Of a stretch of DNA of 32,000 bases, positions 14,891 to 31,608 are shown one piece after another; positions within the stretch are counted from its first letter, which is position 1; each line of letters opens with the position of its first letter. The DNA is taken from assembly GCF_000014785.1 (NCBI RefSeq), contig NC_008340.1, positions 1,920,001 to 1,952,000 on the forward strand. Reading direction: 5' to 3'. The position numbers and the translations under genes were made by a program. The DNA is from Alkalilimnicola ehrlichii MLHE-1 (GTDB taxonomy: Bacteria; Pseudomonadota; Gammaproteobacteria; Nitrococcales; Halorhodospiraceae). The notes under the pieces were generated by a model that was not told where the DNA came from, ran no database searches, and saw only the letters and a program-made list of their open reading frames with translations.

Positions 14891-15961
14891 TCAGTGGCCG
14901 CGGGCCCGGTCGCTCATCATGATCGCCAGCCAGCGGGTCCCGGGCTGCGCCTCCAGCGCCAGCTTGGCGATCATGGTCAGGGGAATGGACAGCAGCATCC
15001 CCACCGGCCCCAACACCCAGCCCCAGGCCATCAGTGAGACCAGCACCACCAGCGGCGACAAGCCCAGGGTATGGCCCATGAAGCGCGGCTCCAGCACGCT
15101 ACCGATGACCACATTGACGGCCACGTAGAGGGCCAGGGCCAGCAGCCCCTCCATCACCCCCAGACCCAGGAACGCGATCAGGACTGCCGGGATGGCGGCG
15201 AGAATCGATCCGACCGTCGGGATGAAGTTGAGCAGGCCGGCAAGGATCCCCCAGAGCACCGGGAAATCCACCCCGATCAGCGCCAACCCCACCCCGACCA
15301 GTAGGCCGGTGGCCAGGCTGGTCGCACTCTTGATGAAGAGATAGCGATAGACCGAGCGCAGGAACCGGCGCGCCCGCACCCCGCCTCGGCGGGAGCGGGG
15401 GAAGGCCGCCCGCAGCTTCCCGGGCAGGTGGGTCTCCTCAAGCAGGAGGAACATGAAGGCCAACAGCACCAGGAAGGTGGTCGCGGTGAACTGGCCCACG
15501 CCCCCCGCCACCGCCCGCGCCAGCCCGGTCAGGTCGGCCAGCGCCGGCAGCGGCGGCCGATCCGGCAACAATTCGGCCGGGACCCCGCGCCCCGCCAACC
15601 AGGCCATGGTCTCATCGAACAGGCCGAACAGGCGCGCCTGGTAGTGCGGCGCCTGGTGCGCCATGCTCTCCACCGCCCCCTGAAGGGCCAGAAAGAGCAG
15701 GAAGAAGGCCAGCCCGACGGCAACAAACAGCGCCAACACGGCCACCGACCCCGGGACCCCGCGCCGCCGCATCCAGGTCAGCGGCGGCGCGCAGATGATG
15801 GCCAGGAAGGCCGCCAGCAACAACGGGGTCACCACCCCGGCGGCGGCCTTCAGCCCGGCCAGCAAAACCACCAGCGCTGCGCCCCCCAGCAGCCAGTGCC
15901 AGGTGGACAGCGTCTGATCCGGCGCCGCCAACGGCGGGAGCGCCTCGTTCTCAGTGTTCAT
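14891..15961 (-). CDS. AI-2E family (PerM/YhhT, UPF0118) membrane transporter
   Basis: Polytopic protein of about 356 aa. The C-terminal region NFIPTVGSILAAIPAVLIA...PRFMGHTLGLSPLVVLVSL is typical of the family. The ATG at 15961 (MNTENE...) overlaps the kinase stop by 11 nt. Confidence 0.8.
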   Translation of the reverse strand: MNTENEALPPLAAPDQTLSTWHWLLGGAALVVLLAGLKAAAGVVTPLLLAAFLAIICAPPLTWMRRRGVPGSVAVLALFVAVGLAFFLLFLALQGAVESMAHQAPHYQARLFGLFDETMAWLAGRGVPAELLPDRPPLPALADLTGLARAVAGGVGQFTATTFLVLLAFMFLLLEETHLPGKLRAAFPRSRRGGVRARRFLRSVYRYLFIKSATSLATGLLVGVGLALIGVDFPVLWGILAGLLNFIPTVGSILAAIPAVLIAFLGLGVMEGLLALALYVAVNVVIGSVLEPRFMGHTLGLSPLVVLVSLMAWGWVLGPVGMLLSIPLTMIAKLALEAQPGTRWLAIMMSDRARGH

Positions 15962-18026
15962 CCCGGGTGGCATCCAATTGCTCCAACAGCTCCCCTTCAT
16001 CCGCCATCCGCGGCTCGCTCAACAGCCAAACCCGAAAGCGGCTGCCCTCCCCCTCCTGCGACTCCACGGTGATCTGCCCGCCGTAGCGGCGGATCAGCCC
16101 GTAGCTGATGGACAGCCCCAGTCCGGTGCCCTCCCCCTCCACCCGCGTGCTGTAGAAGGGATTGAAGATATGATCCAGGGCCTGCTCAGGGATGCCCACC
16201 CCGTTGTCGCTCACGCTGATCACCACACCACGGTCATCCCAGTCGGTTGTCGCCACCCGCACCCGGCCGCTGCGGTCCGCAACCGCGTGCAGGGCGTTGA
16301 GCAGCAGGTTGACCAGCACCTGCTGCAGTTCGCGGGGGCTGATGCGTACCGTGCGGCAGGCGCCCAGCCAGGTCTCCACCGCCACCTCGCGCCGGCGGGA
16401 CAGATGCCCGATCAGATCCACCGACTGCTGCACCACGGTATTGACATCGGTCTCGCTGACAATCCCCACATAGTCCCCCGGCCGGGAGTACTGCAGCAGG
16501 TTGTCCACGATATCGCGAATCCGGTAAACCTGCTCGATGATCAGGTCCACTTCGCGCCGCACCGGCTGGACACCCTCCCCGAGTTCCTGGATAAGCACAT
16601 CCATATTGCCCAGGATCACCGCCGTCGGATTGTTGATCTCGTGCGCAACACCCGCGGTCAATTCGCCCAGGGCGGCCAGCTTTTCCGCCACCACCAACTG
16701 CTGGCGGGTCCGGCGCAGCAGCCGGATGGTGCGCTCCAGTTCCTCGTTACGGGCGCTGAGTTCGGCGGTGCGCTCCTGCACCTTCTCCTCCAGCCGATCC
16801 GCCGCCTCTTGGATCTGCTGGTTACGGGCCTGCAGCAGGTCCAGCATGCCATCGAACTCCCGGGCCAACACCCCCAGTTCGTCCCGGCTGCGGATCGGCC
16901 CCACGCGCAGGGCCTGTCCCGCCCCCGTGGCCCGGACCACGCGGGTGATCCGCTCAATGGGGCTGAAGATCGACTGCGCGCCGCTGATGGCGATACCGGT
17001 CCCGAGCACGATCAGGACCAGGAACAGCATACCCAGCGCCTGCAGGCCGTGGGTGATCTCGCTGCGAAAGGGCGCCTCGAGGAAGCCGGCGTAGAGCATC
17101 CCCACCCGTTCGCCGTGGACATCCACCACCGGCTGGTAGCTGGACATGTACCAGTCATTGACCACGAAGGCGCGGCCGATCCACACCTCCCCCTCGCGCA
17201 GGACCCTGTCCCCCACCTCCCGCGAGATGCGCGTACCCAGCGCCCGCTCACCGGGCGCGATGGGCACGTTGGTGCTGATCCGGACATCGTCCAGGAACAG
17301 GGTCACCGTGCCCGGGCGGCCATCGGGCAGGCTGCCTTCGGGATAGGCCACATCCCGGATCGCGTCCACGAAATCGAAGTTGCCGTTCAGTAACAGCCCA
17401 CCGTCGAGCAGCGCCAGGACCGCACCGTCCGGACCGCGCACCGGATAGGCCGCACGCAGGAACATGGCCCGGTTCTCGACCTCGCGATCGGTGGGCTCGG
17501 CTCGCGCGGTCTCCAGGATCGGCAACCGCAGCCGCTCGGCCAGGGCTTCCGAGTGGGCGCGCAGCCGCTCCGGGCCGTAAATCTCGATCTCGCTGACCGG
17601 CGAATCGCGTAGCGCCGCCCGCAGGATCGGATGGACGGAACGCTCCGCGGGAGCGGGCAGGGCCTGCGGGTGGAGTGCGCGCCCATCCGGGCCGCGCAGA
17701 TTGAGGAAGGTGAACCCGAAACGCGCCTTCCAGTCGCTCATCGCCTCTTCCAGCGCCCCGGTATCACCGGACTCAAGCGCCAGGCGGAACCCATGCGATT
17801 CACCGAGCCGCGCGAGCCGGTCCAGCTGATCGTCGGCCAGTCGCTGGAAGGCGTCATTGGCCACACTCAGGTCGGTGCTGACCTTCATGGTCAACTGATC
17901 GTCGCTGATCTTCTGTACCCAGTAGCCCACCAGGAAGAGTGTGGCGGGCATCAGCAACAGAACCGGGAACAACACCAGGAACAACAGCTTGTACCGGACC
18001 GACAGGGCGGGCAGTCGCCAGCGCAT
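15951..18026 (-). CDS. Membrane sensor histidine kinase with a large periplasmic sensor domain, HAMP/coiled coil, HisKA and HATPase
   Basis: Two TM segments flank about 290 aa. H-box AGVAHEINNP; N/G boxes LLLNALHA, DNGVGI, GTGLGLSISYG. The periplasmic stretch RISTNV..G.RALGT....YMSSYQPV.D..G..VGMLYAG resembles Cache-type sensors from memory, unverified. Start taken at MRWRLP (18026). Confidence 0.85.
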   Translation of the reverse strand: MRWRLPALSVRYKLLFLVLFPVLLLMPATLFLVGYWVQKISDDQLTMKVSTDLSVANDAFQRLADDQLDRLARLGESHGFRLALESGDTGALEEAMSDWKARFGFTFLNLRGPDGRALHPQALPAPAERSVHPILRAALRDSPVSEIEIYGPERLRAHSEALAERLRLPILETARAEPTDREVENRAMFLRAAYPVRGPDGAVLALLDGGLLLNGNFDFVDAIRDVAYPEGSLPDGRPGTVTLFLDDVRISTNVPIAPGERALGTRISREVGDRVLREGEVWIGRAFVVNDWYMSSYQPVVDVHGERVGMLYAGFLEAPFRSEITHGLQALGMLFLVLIVLGTGIAISGAQSIFSPIERITRVVRATGAGQALRVGPIRSRDELGVLAREFDGMLDLLQARNQQIQEAADRLEEKVQERTAELSARNEELERTIRLLRRTRQQLVVAEKLAALGELTAGVAHEINNPTAVILGNMDVLIQELGEGVQPVRREVDLIIEQVYRIRDIVDNLLQYSRPGDYVGIVSETDVNTVVQQSVDLIGHLSRRREVAVETWLGACRTVRISPRELQQVLVNLLLNALHAVADRSGRVRVATTDWDDRGVVISVSDNGVGIPEQALDHIFNPFYSTRVEGEGTGLGLSISYGLIRRYGGQITVESQEGEGSRFRVWLLSEPRMADEGELLEQLDATRDEH

Positions 18027-18043
18027 ACGTTGGCCGCCGAGAA

Positions 18044-19489
18044 TTAAAGGCGGCCCTCCTCCTGCCAACGGGCGAGTTTGCGGTCCAGCGTCTTGCGGGC
18101 CACTCCCAACCGGCGCGCGGCCTCCGACTTGTTACCGTCACAGGCATCCAGCACCCGCAGGATATGCACCCGCTCCACCTCATCCAGCGGCGTCCAGGCG
18201 TTCCCCGCTGGGGCATCCGGCAATTCCGGCCCGCGCTCGGCACTGTCGGGCACCGGGATGGCGGCACCACTGATGCAGTCTGCCGCCGGGCAGCCCAATA
18301 ACAGGGCGCGCTCAATGACATTGCGCAACTCGCGGACGTTGCCGGGCCAGGGATAGCGGTGCAACGCCCTTAGGTCATCGCGACCGAGGGCTATCGGGGG
18401 CACACCCAGCTCGGTCGCCAGGGTCTGGACCAGGTGCTCGGCCAGCGGTTGAATGTCCTCCGGACGTTCCCGCAGCGGTGGCAATTCGACGCTGACCACG
18501 TCCAGCCGGTAGTAGAGGTCCTTGCGAAACCGCCCTTCCTGGACATCCTCGGCGAGCTCCCGGTTACTGGCGGCCACCACCCGGACATCCACCGGCACCT
18601 CCCGGTCACTGCCCACCGGTCGCACCCGGTGATCCTCCAGCACGCGCAGCAGTTTGGCCTGCATGGCCAACGGCATCTCGCTGATCTCGTCGAGGAACAG
18701 GGTGCCGCCCCGGGCGTGGGAGAAGAGCCCCTCCCGGGCCTCCTGGGCCCCCGTGAACGCGCCTTTGCCATGGCCGAAGAGCTCGCTCTCCATAAGCTCC
18801 GGAGCGATGGCGCCACAGTTCACCGGCACGAAAGGGCCCTCGCGGTCGCTCCAGCGGTGCAGCGCACGGGCCGCCAACTCCTTGCCGGTGCCGGACTCGC
18901 CGCGGATCAACACCGTACTCGGTGCCACGGCCAGGCGGCGGAGCAGCTTGCAGACCTGCTGCATGACCTGGCTCTCGCCCACCAGCCCCATCTCCGGGCG
19001 GGTGGCCGCCAACTGCCGGTGCAGTAGGAAATTCTCCCGCTGCATGCTGCGCCGCTCGAAGCAGCGGTCGATGGCGGTATAGAGCTGATCCATCCGGAAG
19101 GGCTTGAGGATGAAGTCACTGGCACCGGCCCGCAGCGCGGCAATGGCGGTCTCCAGATCGGCATAGGCGGTAATGAAGATGACGTCGGTGGGGTCCCCTT
19201 GGGCCCGGACGGCCTCCACCCAATCGACCCCACTCACTCCGGGCAACCGGATGTCGGAGATGATCAGGTCGTAATGACCCTCCTCCCGCGCCGCCTCCGC
19301 CTCCTTGACATTGGCCGCCACCCGGACGTGGCGAAAATGACGCACCAGCGCCCGTTCCAGGAAGTTGCGCACCCCGGGCTCATCGTCGATAACCAGCACA
19401 GAGGCACTGGCCGGAATCCGCCGCGGTCCACTCAGATCGGGACGCTCCTGGTAATCGGCTATGCCGAGGTTGGTTCCCTGTTCAGACAT
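18044..19489 (-). CDS. Sigma-54-dependent response regulator (NtrC family): REC + AAA+ + Fis-type HTH
   Basis: REC domain (VLVIDDEP...DLIISDIRLPG), Walker A GESGTGKE, the sigma-54 contact loop GAFTGA, and the C-terminal HTH GNKSEAARRLGVARKTLDRKL. Confidence 0.9.
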   Translation of the reverse strand: MSEQGTNLGIADYQERPDLSGPRRIPASASVLVIDDEPGVRNFLERALVRHFRHVRVAANVKEAEAAREEGHYDLIISDIRLPGVSGVDWVEAVRAQGDPTDVIFITAYADLETAIAALRAGASDFILKPFRMDQLYTAIDRCFERRSMQRENFLLHRQLAATRPEMGLVGESQVMQQVCKLLRRLAVAPSTVLIRGESGTGKELAARALHRWSDREGPFVPVNCGAIAPELMESELFGHGKGAFTGAQEAREGLFSHARGGTLFLDEISEMPLAMQAKLLRVLEDHRVRPVGSDREVPVDVRVVAASNRELAEDVQEGRFRKDLYYRLDVVSVELPPLRERPEDIQPLAEHLVQTLATELGVPPIALGRDDLRALHRYPWPGNVRELRNVIERALLLGCPAADCISGAAIPVPDSAERGPELPDAPAGNAWTPLDEVERVHILRVLDACDGNKSEAARRLGVARKTLDRKLARWQEEGRL

Positions 19490-21672: not shown

Positions 21673-23022
<1,350 letters not shown>

Positions 23023-23072
23023 TCACCCAACGCCCGGCCCCGTGGACCATTCGGGGGCAACCGGTCCGCCCC

Positions 23073-23091
23073 CCGCACGCTTTCGGTGCGG
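23073..23091. promoter_or_regulatory. Inverted repeat CCGCAC-N7-GTGCGG, a possible NtrC-type enhancer site upstream of the nirB sigma-54 promoter
   Basis: The GCAC-N7-GTGC core spacing equals that of the NtrC consensus TGCACCA-N3-TGGTGCA. It lies about 70-80 nt upstream of the -24 element. The flanking positions do not match the consensus. Confidence 0.3.
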
Positions 23092-23153
23092 ACCACGCCC
23101 GCGACCGGATCACATTTCATCGTATGCCACCGTTTTATTGGTATATTTTGTTC

Positions 23154-23169
23154 TGGCCGAAATCTTGCT
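23154..23169 (+). promoter_or_regulatory. Sigma-54 (-24/-12) promoter for nirBD-nasA
   Basis: TGGCCGAAATCTTGCT. GG at 23155-56 and GC at 23167-68 have the exact consensus spacing (TGGCAC-N5-TTGC). It sits in an AT-rich pocket 184 nt upstream of the nirB ATG. Confidence 0.65.
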
Positions 23170-23182
23170 TATCTATCGTTGA

Positions 23183-23268
23183 GGCGCGTGCAGCGCCCTG
23201 GGCCAATGGCGGCCCGCGGCGAACACCACAACGGGCCGAGGACGGCCCACCCCGGATAAAGGCGTCCG
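23183..23268 (+). promoter_or_regulatory. nirB leader RNA: series of alternative hairpins ending in a hexaloop hairpin that overlaps the terminator
   Basis: Hairpins: GGCGC/GCGCC (23183-97); GGGCC-AATGGC-GGCCC (23200-15); GGCCCG (23211-16) pairing with CGGGCC (23232-37); GGGCCG-AGGA-CGGCCC (23233-48); CGGAT-AAAGGC-GTCCG (23253-68). Confidence 0.5.
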
Positions 23269-23315
23269 ACATCACCCCCCATCAGGGGCTGACCGTCGGA
23301 CGCCTTTTTTGTTTT
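23258..23315 (+). terminator. Intrinsic terminator inside the nirB leader (attenuator)
   Basis: AAAGGCGTCCGAC (23258-70) pairs with GTCGGACGCCTTT (23295-307). There is an inner CCCC/GGGG stem, followed by TTTTTTGTTTT. It lies 38 nt upstream of the nirB ATG, so it is not a terminator of a preceding gene (serS is divergent). Confidence 0.75.
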
Positions 23316-23352
23316 CGCGGAATCGGGCCACGGGCCCGGGAGGTCAAAAGCG

Positions 23353-25788
23353 ATGCAACGCGAACGATTGGTACTGGTAGGCAACGGAATGGCCGGGGTC
23401 AAGACCTTGGAGGAGTTGCTGGCGGTAGCGCCGGAGCGCTACGAGATCACCGTATTCGGCGCCGAACCCCACGGCAATTACAACCGCATCATGCTCTCCC
23501 CACTGCTCTCGGGCGAGAAGACGGTGGATGACATCATGCTCAACCGGCCCGAATGGTATGCGGAGAACGGAATCACCCTCCACACCGGCTGCCCGGTGAC
23601 CGAAATCAACCGCCGGCACCGCGAGGTGATCAGTGGCGATGGCCGGCGCACCCCTTACGATCGCCTGCTCCTGGCCACCGGCTCCAACCCCTTCATCATC
23701 CCCGTGCCTGGCAATGACCTGCCCGGGGTACTCGCCTACCGCGATATCGGCGACGTGGAGGCCATGCTCGAGGCCAGCCGCCAGCATCGCCACGCGGTGG
23801 TTATCGGCGGCGGACTGCTGGGCCTCGAGGCGGCATGGGGGCTGCACCAACAGGGTATGGCGGTCACCGTGGTGCACCTGGCCCCCCACCTCATGGAGCG
23901 TCAGCTCGATGCCCTGGCCGGAGGCATGCTGGAGCAGTCCCTGCGCGAACGCGGTGTCGAGTTCCGCCTGGAGGCGCAGACCCAGGCCCTGCTGGGCGAC
24001 GACCGCGTGGAGGCGGTCCGCTTTGCCGACGGCGAGGAGATCCCCGCCGACTTGGTGGTCATGGCGGCCGGCATCCGTCCCAACATCCACCTGGCGAAGG
24101 CGGCGGGCATCCTCTGCGAGCGTGGCATCGTGGTCAACGACACCATGCAGACCTTCGACCCGCGTATCTATGCCGTGGGCGAGTGCGTGCAGCACCGGGG
24201 CCAATGCTACGGCCTCGTTGCCCCGCTGTTCGAGCAGGCCAAAGTCTGTGCCAACCACCTGGCCGAGGCCGGCTTCGCCGCCTACGAAGGCTCGGTGACG
24301 TCCACCAAGCTCAAGGTCACCGGCGTGGATCTTTTCTCCGCCGGCGACTTTTCCGAGGCCGAAGGCACGGAGGCCATCGTCTACCAGGACCCGGCAGGCG
24401 GCATCTACAAGAAGCTGGTTCTGCAGGAGGATCGCATCCGGGGCGCCGTGCTCTACGGCGACACCAGCGACGGCGCCTGGTACTTCCAGTTGCTCAAGGA
24501 CGGCACCTCGGTCAGCGATTTCCGCGACAGTCTGCTCTTCGGCCAAGCCCACCTGGGTGACGCCGGCCACGGTGGCCAAAGCCATGCCGAGGCCATGCCC
24601 ATGGACGCCCAGGTCTGCGATTGCAACGGCGTGTGCAAAGGCGACATCGTCAACGCCATCCAGGAGCAGGGGCTTTTCAGCCTGGAGGAGGTGCAGTCGC
24701 ACACCAAGGCCTCGGCCTCCTGCGGCTCCTGCACCGGGCTGGTGGAGCAGATCCTGCAATCCACCGTGGGCGGCGGCTACGCCGAGCCCAGGGTCAAACC
24801 CCTCTGCGCCTGCACCGACCACAGCCACGACCAGGTGCGTAAGGCTATCCGCGAGCAGCACCTGACCTGTCTGCAGCAGGTCTTCGACACGTTGGAATGG
24901 AAGACCCCGGATGGCTGCGACAAGTGCCGCCCGGCGCTCAACTACTACCTGATCTCCACCTGGCCCGAGGAAGCGCAGGACGACGAGATGGCGCGCCTGG
25001 TCAACGAGCGCATGCACGCCAACATCCAGAAGGACGGCACCTACTCGGTGGTGCCCCGCATGTGGGGCGGTACCACCACCCCGGCGGAACTGCGCAAGAT
25101 CGCCGAGGTGGCGGAGCGCTACGACGTACCCACCGTGAAGGTCACCGGCGGCCAGCGGATCGATCTGCTGGGCGTGAAAAAAGAGGACCTGCCCGGCATG
25201 TGGGGCGAACTCGCGGAGGCGGGTTTTGTTTCGGGCCACGCCTACGGCAAGGCCCTGCGTACGGTGAAGACCTGCGTCGGCTCGGAATGGTGCCGCTTCG
25301 GGGTGCAGGACTCCACCAGCCTGGGCATCGCCCTGGAAAGGATGTGCTGGGGCGCGTGGACGCCCCACAAGGTCAAGCTGGCCGTCTCCGGCTGCCCGCG
25401 CAACTGCGCCGAGGCCAGCATCAAGGATCTGGGCGTGGTGGCCATCGAGTCCGGCTGGGAGATCCTGGTGGGGGGCAACGGCGGGGTGAAGGTGCGCGCC
25501 TGCGACACGCTCTGCCGGGTCGAGACCGCCGAGGAGGTGATGGAGTACGCCGCGGCCTACCTGCAGCTCTACCGCGAGACGGGCCGCTACCTGGAACGGA
25601 CCGCGCCCTGGATCGAGCGCGTCGGCCTGTCGTGGGTCCGCGAGCAGGTGGTGGACGACGACGTCAACCGCAAGCGCCTCGCCGAGCGCTTCGAACGCGC
25701 CCAGTCCATCTACCGCAAGGACCCCTGGGCCACCTTGGCCAGACAGGGCCAACGCGACCGTTTCCAGCCACTGCGCCAGGTGGGCTGA
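23353..25788 (+). CDS. nirB: Assimilatory NAD(P)H nitrite reductase large subunit
   Basis: 811 aa. FAD/NAD folds (LVGNGMAGV, VVIGGGLLGLE), BFD-like [2Fe-2S] motifs (CDCNGVCKGDI, CGSCTG), and the siroheme/[4Fe-4S] cysteine cluster (TCVGSEWCRFG ... SGCPRNCAEA). GGGAGG lies 9 nt before the ATG. Confidence 0.93.
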   Translation: MQRERLVLVGNGMAGVKTLEELLAVAPERYEITVFGAEPHGNYNRIMLSPLLSGEKTVDDIMLNRPEWYAENGITLHTGCPVTEINRRHREVISGDGRRTPYDRLLLATGSNPFIIPVPGNDLPGVLAYRDIGDVEAMLEASRQHRHAVVIGGGLLGLEAAWGLHQQGMAVTVVHLAPHLMERQLDALAGGMLEQSLRERGVEFRLEAQTQALLGDDRVEAVRFADGEEIPADLVVMAAGIRPNIHLAKAAGILCERGIVVNDTMQTFDPRIYAVGECVQHRGQCYGLVAPLFEQAKVCANHLAEAGFAAYEGSVTSTKLKVTGVDLFSAGDFSEAEGTEAIVYQDPAGGIYKKLVLQEDRIRGAVLYGDTSDGAWYFQLLKDGTSVSDFRDSLLFGQAHLGDAGHGGQSHAEAMPMDAQVCDCNGVCKGDIVNAIQEQGLFSLEEVQSHTKASASCGSCTGLVEQILQSTVGGGYAEPRVKPLCACTDHSHDQVRKAIREQHLTCLQQVFDTLEWKTPDGCDKCRPALNYYLISTWPEEAQDDEMARLVNERMHANIQKDGTYSVVPRMWGGTTTPAELRKIAEVAERYDVPTVKVTGGQRIDLLGVKKEDLPGMWGELAEAGFVSGHAYGKALRTVKTCVGSEWCRFGVQDSTSLGIALERMCWGAWTPHKVKLAVSGCPRNCAEASIKDLGVVAIESGWEILVGGNGGVKVRACDTLCRVETAEEVMEYAAAYLQLYRETGRYLERTAPWIERVGLSWVREQVVDDDVNRKRLAERFERAQSIYRKDPWATLARQGQRDRFQPLRQVG

Positions 25789-25839
25789 CGGCGTCAGCCC
25801 ACACCCTACCCACGTCATGCTACCGACAGGAAACAGACC

Positions 25840-26238
25840 ATGAGCAACCTGGCAACAGACTATCCCGCTGAAACGACGCCGGCGCATCACGAGGACTGGC
25901 TGCCCATCGGCCACCTGGACGACATCCCCCGTCAGGGTGCCCGGGTGGTCGCCCGCCCGGAGGGCGACGATATCGCCATCTTCCGCACCGCCGACGACGC
26001 CCTGTTCGCCATCGGCAACCGCTGCCCCCATCAGGGCGGGCCGCTGGACCAGGGCCTGGTCCACGGGCACCGGGTGACCTGCCCGCTACATGGCTGGCGC
26101 ATCCAACTGGAACAGGGCGAGGCCGTCGCCCCGGATCAGGGCTGTGTGCCGCGCTTCCCGATCCGTCGGGACGACCGGGGAAACCTGTACGTCCGCCTTA
26201 CACCCGTCGACGCCGTAAAGGACGCACCGGAGACCTGA
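25840..26238 (+). CDS. nirD: Nitrite reductase small subunit (Rieske-fold NirD)
   Basis: 132 aa with CPHQGGPL and CPLHGW motifs. Located directly after nirB. Confidence 0.85.
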   Translation: MSNLATDYPAETTPAHHEDWLPIGHLDDIPRQGARVVARPEGDDIAIFRTADDALFAIGNRCPHQGGPLDQGLVHGHRVTCPLHGWRIQLEQGEAVAPDQGCVPRFPIRRDDRGNLYVRLTPVDAVKDAPET

Positions 26239-26241
26239 GCC

Positions 26242-28956
26242 ATGAATACAAGCATCCAACCCCCACGGCAGCCGGGCGAGGTGCACACCACCTGCCCCTA
26301 TTGTGGCGTCGGTTGCGGCGTGCTCGCCCGGATGGACAAGGACAACCGGGTGCATGTCCGGGGCGACCCGGAGCACCCCGCCAACTTCGGCCGCCTCTGC
26401 TCCAAGGGGGCGGCCCTGGGCGAAACCACCGGTCTCAATGGCCGGCTGTTGCACCCCCGGGTCCATGGTCAGCGCACCGACTGGGACACCGCGCTTGCGA
26501 CCGTGGCCGACGGCCTCAACCGGGTCATCCGGCGCGACGGGCCCGAGGCGGTTGGCTTCTACGTCTCGGGCCAGCTCCTCACCGAGGACTACTACGTCGC
26601 CAACAAGCTAATGAAGGGCTACATCGGCTCGGCGAACATCGACACCAATTCCAGGCTCTGCATGGCCTCTTCGGTCGCAGGCCACATTAGGGCCTTTGGT
26701 GAGGATCTGGTGCCCGGCTGTTACGAAGACCTGGAACGCGCCGACCTGGTGGTCCTCACCGGTTCCAACCTGGCCTGGTGCCACCCGGTGCTCTATCAAC
26801 GCCTGGAGGCGGCGCGGGCAAGGCGTCCCGGCATGCGAGTGGTGGTGATCGACCCGCGCGAGACTGAGACCGCCGCGCAGGCCGATCTCCACCTGCCCCT
26901 GCGCCCCGGCAGTGACGTGGCACTGTGGAACGGACTATTCCGCCGTTTGGTGGAGACCGACCAGATCCACCGCGATATCCGCCCGGAGACGGAAGCCGCC
27001 GACAGCAACCTCAAGCGAATACTGCACGAGGCAGGCGACGCCGACGCCGTCGCCAGCGCCTGCGACTTGAATCCCCGCGCCCTGCACCTGTTCTACGACT
27101 GGTTCGCCGGCACCGAACGCACGGTCAGCGTATACTCCCAGGGCGTTAACCAGTCCAGTCAGGGCACCGACAAAGTCAATGCGATCATCAACGTCCACAT
27201 CCTTACCGGACGCCTGGGGCGTCCCGGTTGCGGCCCCTTCTCGGTAACCGGTCAGCCCAATGCCATGGGCGGTCGCGAGGTGGGGGGCCTCTCTAACCAG
27301 TTGGCCGCCCATATGGGCTTTTCTCAGGGGGACCGGATTCGGGTTCAACGCTACTGGGACTCGCCCCGAATCGCCCGACAACCCGGCATGAAGGCGGTAG
27401 AGCTATTTCGTGCCGCCGCCCAAGGCCGCGTCAAAGCGCTCTGGATTATGGCCACCAACCCAGTGGTCAGCCTTCCCGACGCCGACCTGGTGAAACGCGC
27501 GCTCGCACGCTGCGAGCTGGTCGTGGTTTCCGACTGTATCGCCAACACGGATACGACCGGCTATGCCCACGTGCTTATGCCCGCTGCGGCCTGGGGTGAA
27601 AAGAGCGGTACGGTGACCAACTCAGAGCGGTGCATCTCACGCCAACGCGCCTTCCGTACGCCGGCCGGCGAGGCCCGCCCCGACTGGTGGATCATCAGTC
27701 AAGTAGCCCGCCTGATGGGGTTTGATCGCGGCTTCGCGTACGGGAGTCCGCGGGAGATATTCGACGAGCACGCCCGACTGACCGCGGTGCACAACCCTGG
27801 CCCCGGAATGGGCGGCCGGACACTTCACCTAGGGGCGCTGGCCGGAATGAACGCCAAACAGTGGGACACCCTGCAGCCTGTTCAATGGCCGTGTCCCGGC
27901 CCGGGCCTCGACACCGCCGGGCCAGGGCGGGGCACCCAGCGCCTTGCCACCAACGGAGGACTGCCCACGGAGGATGGCCACCCCCGCCTGCACCCGGTGT
28001 GCGCCGAAACACCAGGAAACACGCCAGATGCCCGATTCCCGCTTGTTCTCAACACCGGGCGGACGCGTGATCACTGGCACACGCTCACGCGCACCGGCCT
28101 GTCCGTCAGTCTGAGCACCCATCAGCCGGAACCCCGGTGCGACCTGCACCCCGAGGACGCCACACGCTTCGGCCTGGCGGACGGCCACCTGGTGCGGGTA
28201 CGCAGCGCCTGGGGCAGCGTTCTGCTGCGAGCCCGATACCAGACCGGTCAGCGCCGGGGCGAACTCTTCGTGCCCATGCACTGGAACGACTGCTATGCCG
28301 CGCAGGCGCGCATCGGCGCGGTGGCCAACCCGATCACCGATCCGATATCCGGTCAGCCAGAGTTGAAACACACCCCGGTCGCTGTGGAGGCCGTGCCCGC
28401 CGCGGCCTACGGCTTTGTGCTCAGCAGGGCGGACGACCTGCCGCCACCCGAGACGGCCTACTGGGTTCGGATCAACGGGCACGCTCATCAGCGGTTCGTG
28501 TTCGCCTCCACCGAGGCCCCTGACAGCTGGCGCGATTGGGCGGGCCGTTGGCTTGGTACGGAGGGGACCGTGGTGGAAATGGCCGACCGTGCCCGGGGCG
28601 TCTACCGATTTGCCCGGCTGGTGGACGACCGGCTGGTGGCGTGCCTGTTCATCGCCGCCGACCCCGCCGCCCTGCCCGGCTGCGACTGGCTTGCAGGGCT
28701 GCTGGACAATAACCGCCCCCTCGGCGCCGAGGAACGCCTCGCTCTGCTGGCCGGCCGCCCTGCCGGTGAAGCCGAGACCGGCGAGACCGTCTGCGCCTGC
28801 TTCGGTGTCGGCGAGAGAATCATCGAATCCGCGGTGGCCGCCGGGGCTCACGATACCGAGGCGGTGACCCGCCACTGCAAGGCGGGGGGCTACTGCGGCA
28901 GTTGCCGGCCCGCGATCAACGCCATCATCCAACGCCTGGCGCGCAGTGCCGCCTGA
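26242..28956 (+). CDS. nasA: Assimilatory nitrate reductase catalytic subunit (molybdopterin oxidoreductase) with a C-terminal BFD-like [2Fe-2S] domain
   Basis: 904 aa. N-terminal [4Fe-4S] motif TTCPYCGVGCGV...C. No Tat signal, so cytoplasmic. C-terminal CAC...CGSC (28789-28953). Starts 3 nt after nirD. Confidence 0.9.
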   Translation: MNTSIQPPRQPGEVHTTCPYCGVGCGVLARMDKDNRVHVRGDPEHPANFGRLCSKGAALGETTGLNGRLLHPRVHGQRTDWDTALATVADGLNRVIRRDGPEAVGFYVSGQLLTEDYYVANKLMKGYIGSANIDTNSRLCMASSVAGHIRAFGEDLVPGCYEDLERADLVVLTGSNLAWCHPVLYQRLEAARARRPGMRVVVIDPRETETAAQADLHLPLRPGSDVALWNGLFRRLVETDQIHRDIRPETEAADSNLKRILHEAGDADAVASACDLNPRALHLFYDWFAGTERTVSVYSQGVNQSSQGTDKVNAIINVHILTGRLGRPGCGPFSVTGQPNAMGGREVGGLSNQLAAHMGFSQGDRIRVQRYWDSPRIARQPGMKAVELFRAAAQGRVKALWIMATNPVVSLPDADLVKRALARCELVVVSDCIANTDTTGYAHVLMPAAAWGEKSGTVTNSERCISRQRAFRTPAGEARPDWWIISQVARLMGFDRGFAYGSPREIFDEHARLTAVHNPGPGMGGRTLHLGALAGMNAKQWDTLQPVQWPCPGPGLDTAGPGRGTQRLATNGGLPTEDGHPRLHPVCAETPGNTPDARFPLVLNTGRTRDHWHTLTRTGLSVSLSTHQPEPRCDLHPEDATRFGLADGHLVRVRSAWGSVLLRARYQTGQRRGELFVPMHWNDCYAAQARIGAVANPITDPISGQPELKHTPVAVEAVPAAAYGFVLSRADDLPPPETAYWVRINGHAHQRFVFASTEAPDSWRDWAGRWLGTEGTVVEMADRARGVYRFARLVDDRLVACLFIAADPAALPGCDWLAGLLDNNRPLGAEERLALLAGRPAGEAETGETVCACFGVGERIIESAVAAGAHDTEAVTRHCKAGGYCGSCRPAINAIIQRLARSAA

Positions 28957-29078: not shown

Positions 29079-29094
29079 TGGCACTAATATTGCT
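29079..29094 (+). promoter_or_regulatory. Sigma-54 (-24/-12) promoter for the nrtAB-ATPase unit
   Basis: TGGCACTAATATTGCT is a perfect TGGCAC-N5-TTGC. It sits in an AT-rich region 166 nt upstream of the nrtA ATG. Confidence 0.75.
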
Positions 29095-29106
29095 TACTAG
29101 GAGATA

Positions 29107-29192
29107 GGATGCAACGGTGCATCCACCTTTCATAAGCCCGCACGGTGGGCGGCAGGTCACGAGTGCCTGCCAATGTGGATAAAGGCGTCCAC
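29107..29192 (+). promoter_or_regulatory. nrtA leader RNA hairpins, including a hexaloop hairpin that overlaps the terminator
   Basis: Hairpins: GGATGC-AACGGT-GCATCC (29107-24); GGCAGG...CCTGCC (29151-71); GTGGAT-AAAGGC-GTCCAC (29175-92). Confidence 0.5.
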
Positions 29193-29235
29193 GCACAACG
29201 GCTCAAAGAGCCATGGTGCGTGGGCGTTTTTTTTT
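29184..29235 (+). terminator. Intrinsic terminator inside the nrtA leader (attenuator)
   Basis: CCACGCAC (29189-96) pairs with GTGCGTGG (29216-23), extended by GCGT/GCGT with G-U pairs. There is an inner GGCTC-AAA-GAGCC stem, followed by a run of nine T (29227-35). It lies 24 nt upstream of the nrtA ATG. Confidence 0.75.
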
Positions 29236-29258
29236 GCGATTGATAATGAGGTTTGACA

Positions 29259-30662
29259 ATGGACAAGGACCATGAAAAGCGCCTGAACCGGCGCAGCTTT
29301 CTGAAGACCGGGGGGCTCCTCAGTGGCGCGGCACTGATGGGCATGGTAGCGCCCGGCGTGCGCACCGGCGCCTGGGCCGGGGGAAGTGACGGCCTGGAAG
29401 TGACCCGGGTAGCCCTGGGGTTCATTCCGCTGACCGATTGCGCCCCCCTGGTCATTGCCCGTGAAAAGGGCTTCTTCCAGGCGCACGGCCTCGACGTGCA
29501 GGTGTCGAAGGAAGCCTCCTGGGCCAACATCCGTGACAAGGTCTCCGTCGGTGCATTGGATGGCGGCCACATGCTGGCGGGCATGCCCATCGCCTCCACC
29601 CTCGGCGTGGGCGCCACCCGCACCCCCATGGTCACCGGCTTCAGCATGGACCTGAACGGCAATGCCATTACGGTCTCGAACGCGCTCTACGACCGCATGA
29701 TGGAGGCCGATCCCGAGGCGATGCAGGAACGCCCCATCACTGCTCGGGCCCTCAAAAAGGTCATCGACCAGGACAAGGCGGCCGGTCGGGCACCACTGAC
29801 CTTCGCAATGGTCTTCCCCGTCTCCACACACAACTACGAGCTGCGCTACTGGATGGCCGCCGCAGGCATCAACCCCGACGAAGATGTCCGGCTGGTGGTC
29901 ATCCCACCACCGCAGATGGTGGCCAACCTGCGGGCCCGGAACATGGATGGCTACTGTGTGGGTGAACCTTGGAACATGCGCGCCGTAGACATGGGGATCG
30001 GCAAGGTGCTGGTCACCAACTATGAGATCTGGAACAACAACCCGGAAAAAGTGCTCGGCCTAACGGAAGAATGGGTTGAGAAACACCCCAATACCCACAG
30101 AGCCTTGCTGCAGGCATTGATCCAGACCAATAAGTGGATGGACGAGCCCGAGAACCGCGAGGAGGTCGTGGACATCATCTCCCGCCGGGCCTACGTCAAC
30201 GCACCACCCCATGTGGTGGGCATGTCTATGAAGGGCACACTGCAGTTCCAGCGGGACGAGAAGCCGCGCCCGTTCCCGGATTTCAACGTCTTCCACCGAT
30301 ATGCCGCCACCTACCCGTGGCGCTCCCACGCCGTCTGGTTCCTGACCCAGATGGTGCGTTGGGGTCAGCTACGCGAGCCGGAGGATCTGCTCAAAGTCGC
30401 CGAGCGGGTCTACCGGCCCGACCTTTATCGTGAGGCCGCCCGTGCCGTGGGCGAGCCCTACCCCACCATCGATTACAAAAGCGAAGGCACGCGGGATAAG
30501 CCTTGGACCCTCCAGGAGGCCAGCCACCCCATTGAGATGGGGCCGGACCGCTTCCTCGATGGCCGCACTTTCGACCCCCGGGATGTCATGGCTTACCTGG
30601 AAGGCTTTGATGTGCACTCCCGGGCCCTGAGCCTGCCGCAACTGGCCGAATTGAACGGCTGA
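29259..30662 (+). CDS. nrtA: Nitrate/nitrite ABC transporter periplasmic substrate-binding protein (NrtA/CmpA/NasF type)
   Basis: Tat-type signal LNRRSFLKTGGLLSGAALMG. The conserved GFIPLTDCAPLVIAREKGFF and YCVGEPWN motifs are present. ATG at 29259 follows GAGG. Confidence 0.88.
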   Translation: MDKDHEKRLNRRSFLKTGGLLSGAALMGMVAPGVRTGAWAGGSDGLEVTRVALGFIPLTDCAPLVIAREKGFFQAHGLDVQVSKEASWANIRDKVSVGALDGGHMLAGMPIASTLGVGATRTPMVTGFSMDLNGNAITVSNALYDRMMEADPEAMQERPITARALKKVIDQDKAAGRAPLTFAMVFPVSTHNYELRYWMAAAGINPDEDVRLVVIPPPQMVANLRARNMDGYCVGEPWNMRAVDMGIGKVLVTNYEIWNNNPEKVLGLTEEWVEKHPNTHRALLQALIQTNKWMDEPENREEVVDIISRRAYVNAPPHVVGMSMKGTLQFQRDEKPRPFPDFNVFHRYAATYPWRSHAVWFLTQMVRWGQLREPEDLLKVAERVYRPDLYREAARAVGEPYPTIDYKSEGTRDKPWTLQEASHPIEMGPDRFLDGRTFDPRDVMAYLEGFDVHSRALSLPQLAELNG

Positions 30663-30672
30663 GGAGACGCTC

Positions 30673-31608
30673 ATGGTTGCCAACACTTACGATATCAGCG
30701 CCTCTACCGCCGACAGGCGGTCTGAGGAGGCCACCACCAGGCCTTTGGCCCGTTCCGCCGCTGCCGACACACGGCGTCCCACCGCGGACGTAGCACCCGT
30801 AGAATGCCGGCGCTGGGAACAGATGGTCGCAAGCCTGCAAACCGTTACCCGGTTGGTCACGCTACCCACCCTGACCTTCCTGATCGTACTCGCGGTTTGG
30901 GCAACGACCCAGAGCACCGTTGCGCCGGACCTGCCCACCGTGGGCGAAACGTGGCAGCGGGCCGTCACGCTTTTCTCCGACCCCTTTTACGACTATGGCC
31001 CCAACGACATGGGCATCGGCTGGCAGGTGACCTACTCGCTGGGCCGGGTGCTCGGCGGGTTCTTCCTGGCGTTGCTCGTGGGCATTCCAGTCGGGCTGAT
31101 GATGGGCACCAGCGAAGTCTGTCGGCGCGCCTGGGGGCCACTGATCCAGATCCTGCGCCCGGTCAGCCCGCTGGCCTGGCTGCCCATCGGCCTGCTGCTC
31201 TTCCGGGCGGTGGACCCCTCGGCCATCTTTGTGATCTTCATCACCAGCATATGGCCCATCATCCTGAACACCTCCGCGGGCGTACAGGCGATTCCACGGG
31301 ACTACATGAATGTCTCCCGCGTCCTTCAGTTGAACCGCCTCGAGATCACCCGAAAAATCCTGCTGCCGGCGGCACTGCCTCACATGCTCACCGGCATGCG
31401 CCTCTCCCTAGGTATCGCCTGGATGGTCATTGTGGCCGCGGAGATGCTCACCGGTGGGATCGGTATCGGCTTTTTCGTCTGGGACGAGTGGAACAACCTC
31501 AATGTCGCCTCGATTCTCGTGGCCATTCTGGTCATCGGTCTCGTGGGCATTGCCCTGGATACCGTCATGAATCTGGTCCAGCGCCGCCTGGACTACACCC
31601 AGCGCTGA
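30673..31608 (+). CDS. nrtB: Nitrate/nitrite ABC transporter permease (NrtB/NasE type)
   Basis: Polytopic BPD-type permease, with the EAA-like loop region ...VLQLNRLEITRKILLPAALPHM. GAGGAG lies 6 nt before the ATG at 30673. There is a ~50-aa hydrophilic N-terminal extension. Confidence 0.85.
   Translation: MVANTYDISASTADRRSEEATTRPLARSAAADTRRPTADVAPVECRRWEQMVASLQTVTRLVTLPTLTFLIVLAVWATTQSTVAPDLPTVGETWQRAVTLFSDPFYDYGPNDMGIGWQVTYSLGRVLGGFFLALLVGIPVGLMMGTSEVCRRAWGPLIQILRPVSPLAWLPIGLLLFRAVDPSAIFVIFITSIWPIILNTSAGVQAIPRDYMNVSRVLQLNRLEITRKILLPAALPHMLTGMRLSLGIAWMVIVAAEMLTGGIGIGFFVWDEWNNLNVASILVAILVIGLVGIALDTVMNLVQRRLDYTQR

What the first reader, a model, noticed from the sequence alone, without database searches (positions are those of the whole stretch)
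23154..23352. nirB leader: sigma-54 promoter, a chain of mutually exclusive hairpins, then an intrinsic terminator just before the start codon
Seen in sequence:
- A well-spaced -24/-12 element, TGGCCGAAATCTTGCT.
- Four GC segments in which neighbours are complementary. GGGCC (23200-04) pairs with GGCCC (23211-15). GGCCCG (23211-16) pairs with CGGGCC (23232-37). GGGCCG (23233-38) pairs with CGGCCC (23243-48). Only alternating subsets can therefore form.
- A small hairpin, CGGAU-AAAGGC-GUCCG (23253-68), whose 3' half is also the 5' arm of a strong terminator (23258-23315, followed by a T-run).

The terminator lies between a promoter and the gene it serves, so it must act as an attenuator.

Established knowledge: assimilatory nas/nir operons of Klebsiella, Azotobacter and Pseudomonas combine NtrC/sigma-54 activation with ANTAR-domain antitermination (NasR or NasS/NasT) at a leader terminator. 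ANTAR proteins recognise hairpins with hexaloops carrying A at position 1 and G at position 4. Both AATGGC (23205-10) and AAAGGC (23258-63) satisfy that rule.

Inference: this is an unannotated antitermination leader, and its multi-segment alternative pairing looks more elaborate than a simple two-hairpin ANTAR site.
Basis: partly seen in the sequence, partly recalled or inferred. Interest (0 to 1): 0.6.

Follow-up and report, generated by a model that had tools for sequence, protein, structure and literature searches.

The report
Nitrate-sensing antitermination leader before nirB
The stretch in front of the nitrite reductase gene of Alkalilimnicola ehrlichii is an ordinary, unannotated example of a well-known switch: a nitrogen-starvation promoter, then an RNA leader that stops transcription unless a nitrate-sensing RNA-binding protein (NasR type) holds the stop signal open.

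Summary
The window comes from Alkalilimnicola ehrlichii MLHE-1.

The region reads, in order:
- a sigma-54 -24/-12 element (23154-69);
- P1, a hairpin with an AAUGGC loop (23200-15);
- a middle hairpin (23233-48);
- P2, a weak hairpin with an AAAGGC loop (23253-68);
- a -33 kcal/mol terminator whose 5' arm begins in the P2 loop, followed by a U-tract ending at 23315;
- nirB-nirD-nasA.

A covariance model built only from leaders of other bacteria picks 23200-23268 as its best hit in the whole window (32.3 bits). A second copy of the same design sits before nrtA (29079-29235). The combination of promoter, two hairpins and T-run occurs twice in the window and never in 400 shuffles.

The genome encodes a NasR-type NIT+ANTAR protein about eight genes after nirB. 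So this is a new member of the known NtrC/sigma-54 plus ANTAR antitermination class.

The "mutually exclusive" pairing is real on paper. It was seen in none of the other leaders compared, and a barrier of about 16 kcal/mol makes it unlikely to form during transcription. It probably reflects two hairpins sharing one stem sequence. A three-hairpin layout is shared with three related leaders.

The parts
23075..23089 (.). Possible enhancer (NtrC-type) site, GCAC-N7-GTGC, about 65 nt (80 nt start to start) upstream of the -24 element.
   Evidence: There are only 2 such matches in the window against 1.7 expected, so the site is suggestive by position only.
23154..23169 (+). Sigma-54 type -24/-12 promoter, TGGCCGAAATCTTGCT. 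The inferred start of transcription is near 23180.
   Evidence: 2 matches against 0.59 expected. The Rfam narK model aligns its own promoter part to this element. Relatives have TGGCAC-N5-TTGC at the same relative place.
23183..23197 (+). Hairpin at the 5' end of the leader, GGCGC-GUGCA-GCGCC (-9.1 kcal/mol). It is not part of the ANTAR site.
23200..23215 (+). P1: GGGCC-AAUGGC-GGCCC. Hexaloop with A at position 1 and G at position 4, and a C:G closing pair.
   Evidence: -9.4 kcal/mol. Aligned as P1 by model R2. P1 shows covariation across the family.
23233..23248 (+). Middle hairpin: GGGCCG-AGGA-CGGCCC, which can also be read as GGGCC-GAGGAC-GGCCC. It has the same stem as P1. It is positionally homologous to the A1/G4 heptaloop hairpin just 5' of P2 in related nirB leaders.
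   Evidence: (-11.2 kcal/mol).
23253..23268 (+). P2: CGGAU-AAAGGC-GUCCG. A weak hexaloop hairpin (-4.4 kcal/mol) with a U.G closing pair. Its loop and 3' arm form the start of the terminator's 5' arm.
   Evidence: The 14-mer GGATAAAGGCGTCC occurs only here and in the nrtA leader.
23258..23315 (+). Intrinsic terminator. The 13-bp base (23258-70 paired with 23295-23307) carries an inner stem and is followed by UUUGUUUU.
   Evidence: -33 kcal/mol. At equilibrium P2 has probability 0 once the terminator is transcribed.
23325..23343 (+). Hairpin after the terminator, GGGCC-ACG-GGCCC (a third copy of the same stem), abutting the ribosome-binding site GGGAGG (23338-43).
23353..28956 (+). The genes under control: nirB (23353-25788), nirD (25840-26238) and nasA (26242-28956).
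   Evidence: NCBIfam; nirB and nirD pass the curated cut-offs, while nasA matches the assimilatory nitrate reductase models only below cut-off and its name comes from the database records. (names in Alkalilimnicola ehrlichii MLHE-1).
29079..29235 (+). Second leader of the same design, upstream of nrtA. It has the sigma-54 element TGGCACTAATATTGCT (29079-94), P1 GGAUGC-AACGGU-GCAUCC (29107-24), two linker hairpins (29136-50 and 29151-71), P2 UGUGGAU-AAAGGC-GUCCACG (29174-93), and a terminator with a U9 tract ending at 29235.
   Evidence: The fold z-score is -6.1. (16.5 bits, third-best hit in the window)..

Best explanation
This is the leader of the nirBD-nasA operon of Alkalilimnicola ehrlichii MLHE-1, and it combines two controls.

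(1) Promoter control. Transcription starts at a sigma-54 promoter (23154-69), presumably activated by an NtrC-type enhancer-binding protein when fixed nitrogen is scarce.

(2) Default termination. The ~135-nt leader RNA normally ends at a strong intrinsic terminator (23258-23315), 38 nt before the start codon.

(3) Antitermination. When nitrate or nitrite is present, a dimeric NIT+ANTAR protein of the NasR type (ABI57054, encoded about eight genes downstream) binds the hexaloop hairpins P1 (AAUGGC) and P2 (AAAGGC). P2 on its own is weak (-4.4 kcal/mol), and its loop and 3' arm are the first 11 nt of the terminator's 5' arm. Holding P2 closed therefore prevents the terminator from forming, and polymerase reads through into nirB.

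The same design precedes nrtABC at 29079-29235, so both transcription units answer to the same two signals.

Shown here: the sequence elements, their folding energies, family membership by an independent covariance model, covariation of P1, and the presence of the NasR-type gene.

Inferred: the start site, the identity of the activator, protein binding, and the nitrate response.

The middle hairpin most likely acts as a structural spacer, or is a decayed or duplicated ANTAR hairpin. Its ability to swap arms with P1 is most likely a by-product of the two hairpins sharing one stem sequence.
For: - Gene context: nirB/nirD/nasA followed by nrtABC, with serS divergent upstream, so no co-directional gene needs this terminator.
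- Source organism identified by exact protein matches.
- Rarity of the promoter pattern: 2 hits against 0.59 expected, both in front of hairpin pairs.
- Composite test: 2 observed, 0 in 400 shuffles.
- Energies: P1 -9.4, P2 -4.4, terminator -33 kcal/mol. P2 has probability 0.95 before the terminator is made and 0 afterwards.
- Independent model: R2 was built from ten leaders of other bacteria that lie upstream of nrtA-like or nirB genes. Its top hit in the window with filters off is 23200-23268 (32.3 bits, E 7.6e-5). The nrtA leader ranks third. In a 1.5-Mb search the window hit has E 0.0036.
- Covariation on 14 aligned members: 95% of cells paired; 4 of 5 P1 pairs change on both sides; 0 of 500 shuffles reach the observed score.
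- In all 16 family members examined, the terminator's 5' arm starts within 3 nt of the first base of the P2 loop, and a U-tract follows.
- Relatives with a NasR gene next to nrtABC/nirBD/nasA have the same promoter-hairpins-terminator layout upstream of nirB.
- A. ehrlichii encodes a 431-aa NIT+ANTAR protein, ABI57054. It matches the K. oxytoca NasR structure 4AKK over its full length, E 9.5e-50.
- Literature for the mechanism: NasR and the two-hairpin motif with A1/G4 (PMC7496416, PMC12591593); the NalA/NasT leader of nirBD with a sigma-54 promoter (PMC10783516, PMC12830290, PMC4253122).
Against: - There are no experimental data for this organism: no mapped start site, no 3' ends, no binding assay.
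- The -24 element is TGGCCG, not TGGCAC. The putative NtrC site is not statistically distinguishable from chance.
- No Rfam family reaches its gathering score. narK RF03032 scores 15.8 against 43.2 bits, and P11 RF00625 scores 12.1 against 70.
- A first model built from Rhodocyclales nirB leaders did not recover the site.
- P2 closes with U.G rather than the C:G preferred in the NasR SELEX experiment (PMC7496416).
- Equilibrium folding predicts that P1 is mostly hidden in an alternative helix, which would work against binding if equilibrium were reached.
- The position of nasR relative to the window is inferred from consecutive GenBank protein accession numbers, not seen in sequence.
- I could not check whether a NasS/NasT pair also exists elsewhere in the genome.
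Confidence: 0.85

Rival explanations
1. Three-state leader. The arm exchange between P1 and the middle hairpin is functional. In this reading the extended helix (23199-204 paired with 23244-249, plus 23210-16 paired with 23232-38) hides the P1 loop. Antitermination would then need NasR to capture P1 during a short co-transcriptional time window. Alternatively the helix could stabilise the terminated leader RNA.
For: - The alternative is 2-4.6 kcal/mol more stable than P1 plus the middle hairpin.
- P1 has predicted probability 0.00-0.19 here, against 0.84-1.00 in 15 other family members.
- Three GGGCC-N3-6-GGCCC hairpins lie within 140 nt, out of only six in the whole window (2.7 expected).
Against: - It is not conserved. 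The paralogous nrtA leader and the 14 other family leaders modelled show no competitor for P1, and the folds of three related nirB leaders show none either.
- The local hairpins form first during transcription (prefix folds).
- The direct refolding path has a barrier of about 16 kcal/mol. That is far too slow for the second or two before the polymerase reaches the U-tract.
- Identical stems are simply explained by duplication of a hairpin. The middle hairpin aligns with the hairpin next to P2 in relatives.
- No relative closer than ~73% NirB identity exists in the databases to test conservation.
Confidence: 0.1
2. The leader works the same way, but the antiterminator is a NasS/NasT two-protein system encoded elsewhere in the genome rather than NasR, or in addition to it.
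For: - ANTAR proteins of both kinds recognise the same two-hairpin motif (PMC7496416, PMC10783516).
- The leaders used to build model R2 mostly sit next to NasT-type genes in Betaproteobacteria.
- The rest of the genome was not searched for a NasT-type gene.
Against: - No ANTAR gene other than nasR was seen. The window has none.
- The NIT+ANTAR gene lies in the same cluster by accession order.
- The closest relatives with this nirB leader type have nasR adjacent and no nasT in the fetched loci.
Confidence: 0.08
3. The hairpin and T-run form a plain constitutive terminator or insulator, or the 3' end of a stand-alone small RNA. The hexaloop hairpins would then be coincidental.
For: - In Pseudomonas the equivalent terminated leader (NalA) was first noticed as a small RNA (PMC4253122, PMC10783516). 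A stable ~135-nt RNA is therefore expected here too.
Against: - There is no co-directional upstream gene to terminate, because serS is divergent.
- The terminator lies between a promoter and the gene it serves.
- The P2/terminator overlap is conserved in 16 of 16 family members.
- The composite was never seen in 400 shuffles.
- An independent model hits the site.
Confidence: 0.03
4. The sigma-54 match is fortuitous, and the leader is transcribed from another, unrecognised promoter. The ANTAR switch would be unaffected.
For: - There are two mismatches to TGGCAC in the -24 element.
- The enhancer site is not significant.
Against: - No sigma-70-like site was found in 22500-23700.
- The only two pattern matches in 32 kb both precede ANTAR leaders, at 12 and 29-30 nt from P1.
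- The same promoter type precedes nearly all related leaders.
- Known nas/nirBD leaders are sigma-54 dependent (PMC12591593, PMC12830290).
Confidence: 0.08

Closest known systems
Klebsiella oxytoca nasF operon leader with NasR (NIT+ANTAR)
   Same: - An NtrC/sigma-54 promoter.
- A leader RNA with two hexaloop hairpins (A at position 1, G at position 4).
- The second hairpin overlaps an intrinsic terminator.
- A one-component nitrate/nitrite-sensing NIT+ANTAR antiterminator is encoded in the same gene cluster (PMC7496416, PMC12591593).
   Different: - The first regulated gene here is nirB rather than the transporter gene. The transporter genes have their own second leader.
- A 37-nt linker with a stable hairpin separates P1 and P2.
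- P2 closes with U.G.
- The protein is a distant relative of K. oxytoca NasR, matching along its full length with E 9.5e-50.
- I did not have the nasF leader sequence, so I could not align it.
Pseudomonas NalA leader of nirBD with NasS/NasT
   Same: - A sigma-54/NtrC promoter.
- A leader upstream of nirBD with two hexaloop hairpins whose A and G residues are needed for binding.
- A Rho-independent terminator relieved by an ANTAR protein (PMC10783516, PMC12830290).
   Different: - The sensor and the RNA-binding functions are on two proteins there (NasS, NasT).
- Here the cluster encodes a fused NIT+ANTAR protein.
- The weak Rfam P11 hit (12.1 bits) is far below threshold.
Rfam RF03032 narK RNA motif
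   Same: The model's consensus starts with a sigma-54-like GGCaCA-N-UUGCU and ends with an ACGAC-AAAGAC-GUCGC hairpin. cmscan aligns these to the window's promoter and to P2.
   Different: - The score of 15.8 bits is well below the gathering score of 43.2, so the window sequence is not a member by Rfam's own criterion.
- The central part of the model does not match.
Sigma-54/ANTAR leaders upstream of nrtA-like genes in Betaproteobacteria and other Gammaproteobacteria (loci L025, L029, L030, L032, L041, L050, L063, L077, L080, L122)
   Same: - Same order of parts.
- Same loop sequences (P1 AAUGGC/AACGGC, P2 AAAGGC/AACGGC).
- P2 core GGAC-AAAGGC-GUCC.
- A 25-47 nt linker that usually forms its own hairpin.
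- A terminator that starts in the P2 loop.
   Different: - Those mostly sit next to NasT-type genes.
- Their P1 is predicted to be stably formed.
- Their P2 closes with C:G.

Membership tests
ANTAR-target two-hairpin antiterminator leader | Two stem-loops in tandem, each with a six-base terminal loop. | tested here: met
   P1 is at 23200-15 and P2 at 23253-68, each with a 5-bp stem and a hexaloop.
ANTAR-target two-hairpin antiterminator leader | A at loop position 1 and G at loop position 4 in both loops. | tested here: met
   The loops are AAUGGC and AAAGGC. The paralogous leader has AACGGU and AAAGGC.
ANTAR-target two-hairpin antiterminator leader | A C:G pair closing each loop. This is a preference seen in the NasR SELEX experiment (PMC7496416), not an absolute rule. 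| tested here: inconclusive
   P1 closes with C:G. P2 closes with U.G in both leaders of the window, against C:G in 13 of 14 aligned family members.
ANTAR-target two-hairpin antiterminator leader | The second hairpin overlaps the 5' arm of an intrinsic terminator and cannot coexist with it. | tested here: met
   The terminator's 5' arm (23258-70) starts at the first base of the P2 loop. P2 probability falls from 0.95 to 0 once the terminator is present.
ANTAR-target two-hairpin antiterminator leader | Recognised by a sequence-and-structure model built from independent members. | tested here: met
   Model R2 contains no window sequence. Its top hit in the window is 23200-23268 (32.3 bits, E 7.6e-5). 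In a 1.5-Mb search the hit has E 0.0036. A narrower model, R1, failed.
ANTAR-target two-hairpin antiterminator leader | A cognate ANTAR-domain protein is encoded in the genome, typically nearby. | tested here: met
   ABI57054 has NIT+ANTAR domains, lies 8 accession numbers after nirB, and matches NasR structure 4AKK with E 9.5e-50.
ANTAR-target two-hairpin antiterminator leader | Protein binding to the hairpins and signal-dependent read-through. | not testable with these tools
   This needs a gel-shift or anisotropy assay and in vitro transcription, or term-seq.
Sigma-54 dependent promoter | GG at -24 and GC at -12 with consensus spacing (TGGCAC-N5-TTGCW). | tested here: met
   TGGCCGAAATCTTGCT has correct spacing and two mismatches in the -24 hexamer. 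The pattern has 2 hits in the window against 0.59 expected.
Sigma-54 dependent promoter | An upstream binding site for an enhancer-binding protein (NtrC: TGCACC-N5-GGTGCA). | tested here: inconclusive
   GCAC-N7-GTGC occurs at 23075-89, and a site with 2 mismatches at 23043-59. Their counts are no higher than in shuffles.
Sigma-54 dependent promoter | Transcription start about 12 nt after the GC, dependent on rpoN. | not testable with these tools
   This needs 5' end mapping in wild type and in an rpoN mutant.
Intrinsic (Rho-independent) terminator | A stable GC-rich stem directly followed by a U-tract. | tested here: met
   A 13-bp base plus an inner stem fold at -33 kcal/mol, followed by UUUGUUUU. 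The simple scanner missed it because its loop limit is 8 nt.
Rfam RF03032 (narK RNA) | Score at or above the family's gathering score (43.2 bits). | tested here: not met
   The score is 15.8 bits, E 0.93. There are no hits at gathering thresholds.
Rfam RF00625 (Pseudomonas sRNA P11) | Score at or above the family's gathering score (70 bits). | tested here: not met
   The score is 12.1 bits, E 1.8.

The most novel reading that the evidence does not exclude
The A. ehrlichii nirB leader, and the three related Ectothiorhodospiraceae nirB leaders, could be a three-hairpin variant of the ANTAR site.

In A. ehrlichii, two of the hairpins share one stem sequence and can re-pair into an extended helix that buries the P1 loop. 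That would give a third state. It could act as a lock that keeps the operon off unless NasR captures P1 while the RNA is being made. It could also act as a stabilising fold for the terminated NalA-like RNA.
Probability: 0.1. Interest if true: 0.45.

Novelty: new member of a known kind. Interest (0 to 1): 0.2.

Why it matters
- Annotation. The finding adds two regulatory leaders, upstream of nirBD-nasA and of nrtABC, to a haloalkaliphilic arsenite-oxidising, nitrate-respiring bacterium (organism description from my own knowledge). It names the likely regulator, NasR-type ABI57054.
- Prediction. It predicts that nitrate assimilation in this organism needs both nitrogen limitation and nitrate or nitrite.
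- Family picture. The comparison shows that linker hairpins between P1 and P2 are common in this class. It also shows that a three-hairpin layout recurs in one clade.
- Limits. Nothing here changes the known mechanism. It does not open a long-standing question.

Tried and rejected
- Rfam at gathering thresholds gave no hit. At permissive E-values there were only weak narK and P11 hits.
- The simple terminator scan missed the terminator because its loop is longer than 8 nt.
- Model R1, built from nine nirB leaders mostly from Rhodocyclales, was dominated by lineage-specific sequence. It recovered only P1, at 12.8 bits, among many false hits. I replaced it with R2.
- MAFFT mis-aligned leaders with very different linker lengths. 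I trimmed the stems to 5 bp and dropped two sequences to get a usable seed alignment.
- An exact look-up of NirB for its contig failed. Look-ups of nrtB and nasR returned only short read-assembly contigs. The position of nasR therefore had to be inferred from accession order.
The metagenome scan and the 5.8-billion-protein search also found nothing closer than ~73%. Conservation of the arm-exchange pairing in close relatives therefore could not be tested.
- I considered and rejected a terminator for an upstream gene (serS is divergent) and a bidirectional terminator (no T-run on the other strand, no convergent gene).
- I considered the middle hairpin as a third ANTAR site. Read as a hexaloop, its loop is GAGGAC, with G rather than A at position 1. 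This is left open.
Full report
**Observation.**
- TGGCCGAAATCTTGCT lies at 23154-69, with the GG-to-GC spacing of sigma-54 promoters.
- The four GC segments are 23200-04, 23211-16, 23232-38 and 23243-48.
- The small hairpin CGGAU-AAAGGC-GUCCG lies at 23253-68.
- The large hairpin has its 5' arm at 23258-70 and its 3' arm at 23295-23307. It is followed by UUUGUUUU ending at 23315, 38 nt before the nirB ATG at 23353.
- RNAfold gives -33 kcal/mol for the large hairpin, -4.4 for the small one, -9.4 for GGGCC-AAUGGC-GGCCC and -11.2 for GGGCCG-AGGA-CGGCCC.

**Context.**
- NCBIfam identifies nirB (23353-25788) and nirD (25840-26238). The next gene (26242-28956) matches assimilatory nitrate reductase models only below their cut-offs, and database records name it as such.
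- They are followed by a nitrate ABC transporter: a binding protein (29253-30662), a permease (30673-31608), and an ATPase that runs off the window.
- The upstream gene is serS on the opposite strand. No co-directional gene needs a terminator here.
- Exact protein matches place the window in Alkalilimnicola ehrlichii MLHE-1.

**Chance.**
- TGGC-N7-TTGCW occurs twice in 32 kb on both strands (0.59 expected), at 23154 and 29079.
- Pairs of A..G.. hexaloop hairpins with stems of at least 5 bp, no more than 60 nt apart, also occur exactly twice. They start 29-30 nt and 12 nt downstream of those two matches.
- Requiring promoter, hairpin pair and T-run together gives 2 in the window and 0 in 400 dinucleotide shuffles.
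- The 14-mer GGATAAAGGCGTCC, the core of P2, occurs only at these two places.

**The second site.** The site at 29079-29235, upstream of nrtA, is a full paralogue.
- Its promoter is a perfect TGGCACTAATATTGCT.
- P1 is GGAUGC-AACGGU-GCAUCC.
- Two linker hairpins follow.
- P2 is UGUGGAU-AAAGGC-GUCCACG.
- The terminator is a 16-bp stem with a U9 tract. The fold z-score is -6.1.

**Family membership.**
- Upstream regions of NirB relatives from genomes and metagenomes show the same order of parts in many lineages: a sigma-54 element, a hexaloop hairpin, a linker, a second hexaloop hairpin and often a terminator.
- One well-defined group has P1 loops AAUGGC/AACGGC, P2 GGAC-AAAGGC-GUCC, linkers of 25-47 nt that usually fold into their own hairpin, and a terminator starting in the P2 loop. 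It lies upstream of nrtA-like genes, and once upstream of nirB.
- I built a covariance model (R2) from ten of these leaders, using no window sequence.
- With filters off, its best hit in the whole window is 23200-23268 (32.3 bits, E 7.6e-5), with P1 and P2 aligned as such. The nrtA leader ranks third (16.5 bits).
- In a 1.5-Mb search the window hit has E 0.0036.
- On the 14 aligned members, 95% of cells pair. Four of five P1 pairs change on both sides. No shuffle of 500 reaches the observed covariation score, and slid controls collapse. That alignment is fitted to the model, which favours the structure.
- P2 is conserved in sequence rather than covarying.
- Rfam gives nothing at gathering scores. 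The weak hit to the narK motif aligns its promoter part and terminal hairpin to the window's promoter and P2, but at 15.8 bits against 43.2 it is not a member.

**Trans factor.**
- The window has no ANTAR gene.
- The closest relative's locus, from an Ectothiorhodospiraceae metagenome-assembled genome, has a NIT+ANTAR gene directly upstream of nrtABC-nirBD-nasA.
- Searching with that protein finds a 431-aa NIT+ANTAR protein of A. ehrlichii MLHE-1.
- Its accession, ABI57054, is eight numbers after NirB (ABI57046). That places it about three genes beyond the window's end, which is an inference from accession order.
- It matches the K. oxytoca NasR structure 4AKK over its full length, E 9.5e-50.
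- Other relatives with such a gene have the same cluster and the same nirB leader layout.

**Mechanism.** The published systems are the K. oxytoca nasF leader with NasR and the Pseudomonas NalA leader with NasT.
- Both combine an NtrC/sigma-54 promoter with an ANTAR protein. The protein binds two hexaloop hairpins carrying A1 and G4, and the second hairpin excludes a terminator (PMC7496416, PMC12591593, PMC10783516, PMC12830290).
- Here P2 has probability 0.95 before the terminator's 3' arm is made and 0 afterwards. The default outcome is therefore termination, and a protein that holds P2 closed gives read-through.
- The steps from protein binding onward are inferred.

**The "chain of mutually exclusive hairpins".**
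- It is real on paper. A nested fold pairs the 5' arm of P1 with the 3' arm of the middle hairpin, and the 3' arm of P1 with the 5' arm of the middle hairpin. This fold is 2-4.6 kcal/mol better than the two local hairpins.
- Predicted P1 occupancy is 0.00-0.19, depending on which flanks are included.
- This is an outlier. In 15 other members, including the paralogue, P1 occupancy is 0.84-1.00.
- The local hairpins form first in prefix folds.
- The best direct refolding path has a barrier of about 16 kcal/mol. That is far too slow for the second or so before the polymerase reaches the U-tract.

**Origin of the shared stems.**
- An alignment with three related nirB leaders shows that the middle hairpin sits where they have a hairpin with an A1/G4 heptaloop. 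That hairpin lies 3-5 nt (ACC or ACCC) before P2.
- All four leaders have a further hairpin 14-17 nt upstream. In A. ehrlichii this is the canonical P1.
- The identical GGGCC/GGCCC stems are therefore most simply explained by duplication or turnover of a hairpin, with cross-pairing as a by-product.
- A third copy of the same stem, GGGCC-ACG-GGCCC, abuts the ribosome-binding site at 23325-43. Three of the six such hairpins in the window lie in this one leader. I cannot explain that clustering further.
- No relative closer than ~73% NirB identity exists in the searched collections, so conservation of the cross-pairing cannot be tested.

**Verdict.**
- The finding is a correct recognition of an unannotated but ordinary NasR/ANTAR antitermination leader behind a sigma-54 promoter.
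- It is a new member of a known kind. Minor peculiarities are a long structured linker, a U.G-closed P2, and a three-hairpin layout shared with a few relatives.
- Confidence in the mechanism class is about 0.85. The functional three-state reading gets about 0.1.

Noticed in passing
window 29079-29235: A second complete sigma-54/ANTAR/terminator leader lies upstream of nrtA. It has a perfect TGGCACTAATATTGCT promoter, P1 loop AACGGU, P2 loop AAAGGC, and a terminator with a U9 tract.
   Followed up: yes
window 23325-23343: After the terminator there is a third small hairpin with the same GGGCC/GGCCC stem (loop ACG), ending at the first G of the ribosome-binding site GGGAGG. Three of the six GGGCC-N3-6-GGCCC hairpins in the window lie within 140 nt here.
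   Followed up: partly
window 29157-29166; L167 ~11630, L001 ~6050, L163 ~6660: The 8-mer ACGAGUGC is shared by the loop region of the second linker hairpin of the window's nrtA leader and by the nrtA leaders of three NasR-containing relatives. Those relatives also keep a CGCC-AAUGG(C/U)-GGCG hairpin but lack a T-run. The function is unknown.
   Followed up: no
L029, L034, L041, L057, L063, L065, L068, L077 (about 110 nt upstream of nirB): The Rhodocyclales nirB leaders have two hexaloop hairpins (second one AUGGC-AACGAC-GUCAU) but no U-tract terminator. Instead a conserved GCGCUGAAA...UGCACC...GGUGCGCGCAACGUUGGAG follows. This suggests a different read-out, such as translation or Rho.
   Followed up: no
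window 15951-19489 (- strand): A histidine kinase and a sigma-54-dependent response regulator lie 3.7 kb upstream of the nirB promoter. The regulator resembles AtoC/NtrC but scores below the NtrC cut-off (404.7 against 558.6 bits). It shows that sigma-54 is in use in this organism. Whether it acts on these promoters is unknown.
   Followed up: no
window 22932-22960 (+ strand): A terminator-like hairpin plus T-run on the + strand overlaps the start codon of serS, which is on the - strand. On the serS mRNA it would be a hairpin containing the AUG.
   Followed up: no
window 23183-23197: The hairpin GGCGC-GUGCA-GCGCC lies right at the predicted 5' end of the leader. It was not seen in the related leaders. 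It may protect the 5' end.
   Followed up: no
L001, L164, L167 (nirB leaders): The hairpin next to P2 has a seven-base loop (AACGGUA, ACCGAUA, ACCGGUC) that keeps A1 and G4. L001's P2 loop is GACGGC, with G at position 1. These are natural departures from the hexaloop A1/G4 rule.
   Followed up: partly
cluster look-ups: A second A. ehrlichii assembly (XQQ accessions, 3.19-Mb contig) shares identical SerS and sigma-54 regulator proteins. It is not listed for NirB, NirD, NasA or NasR. The nitrate-assimilation cluster may therefore differ or be missing in that strain.
   Followed up: no
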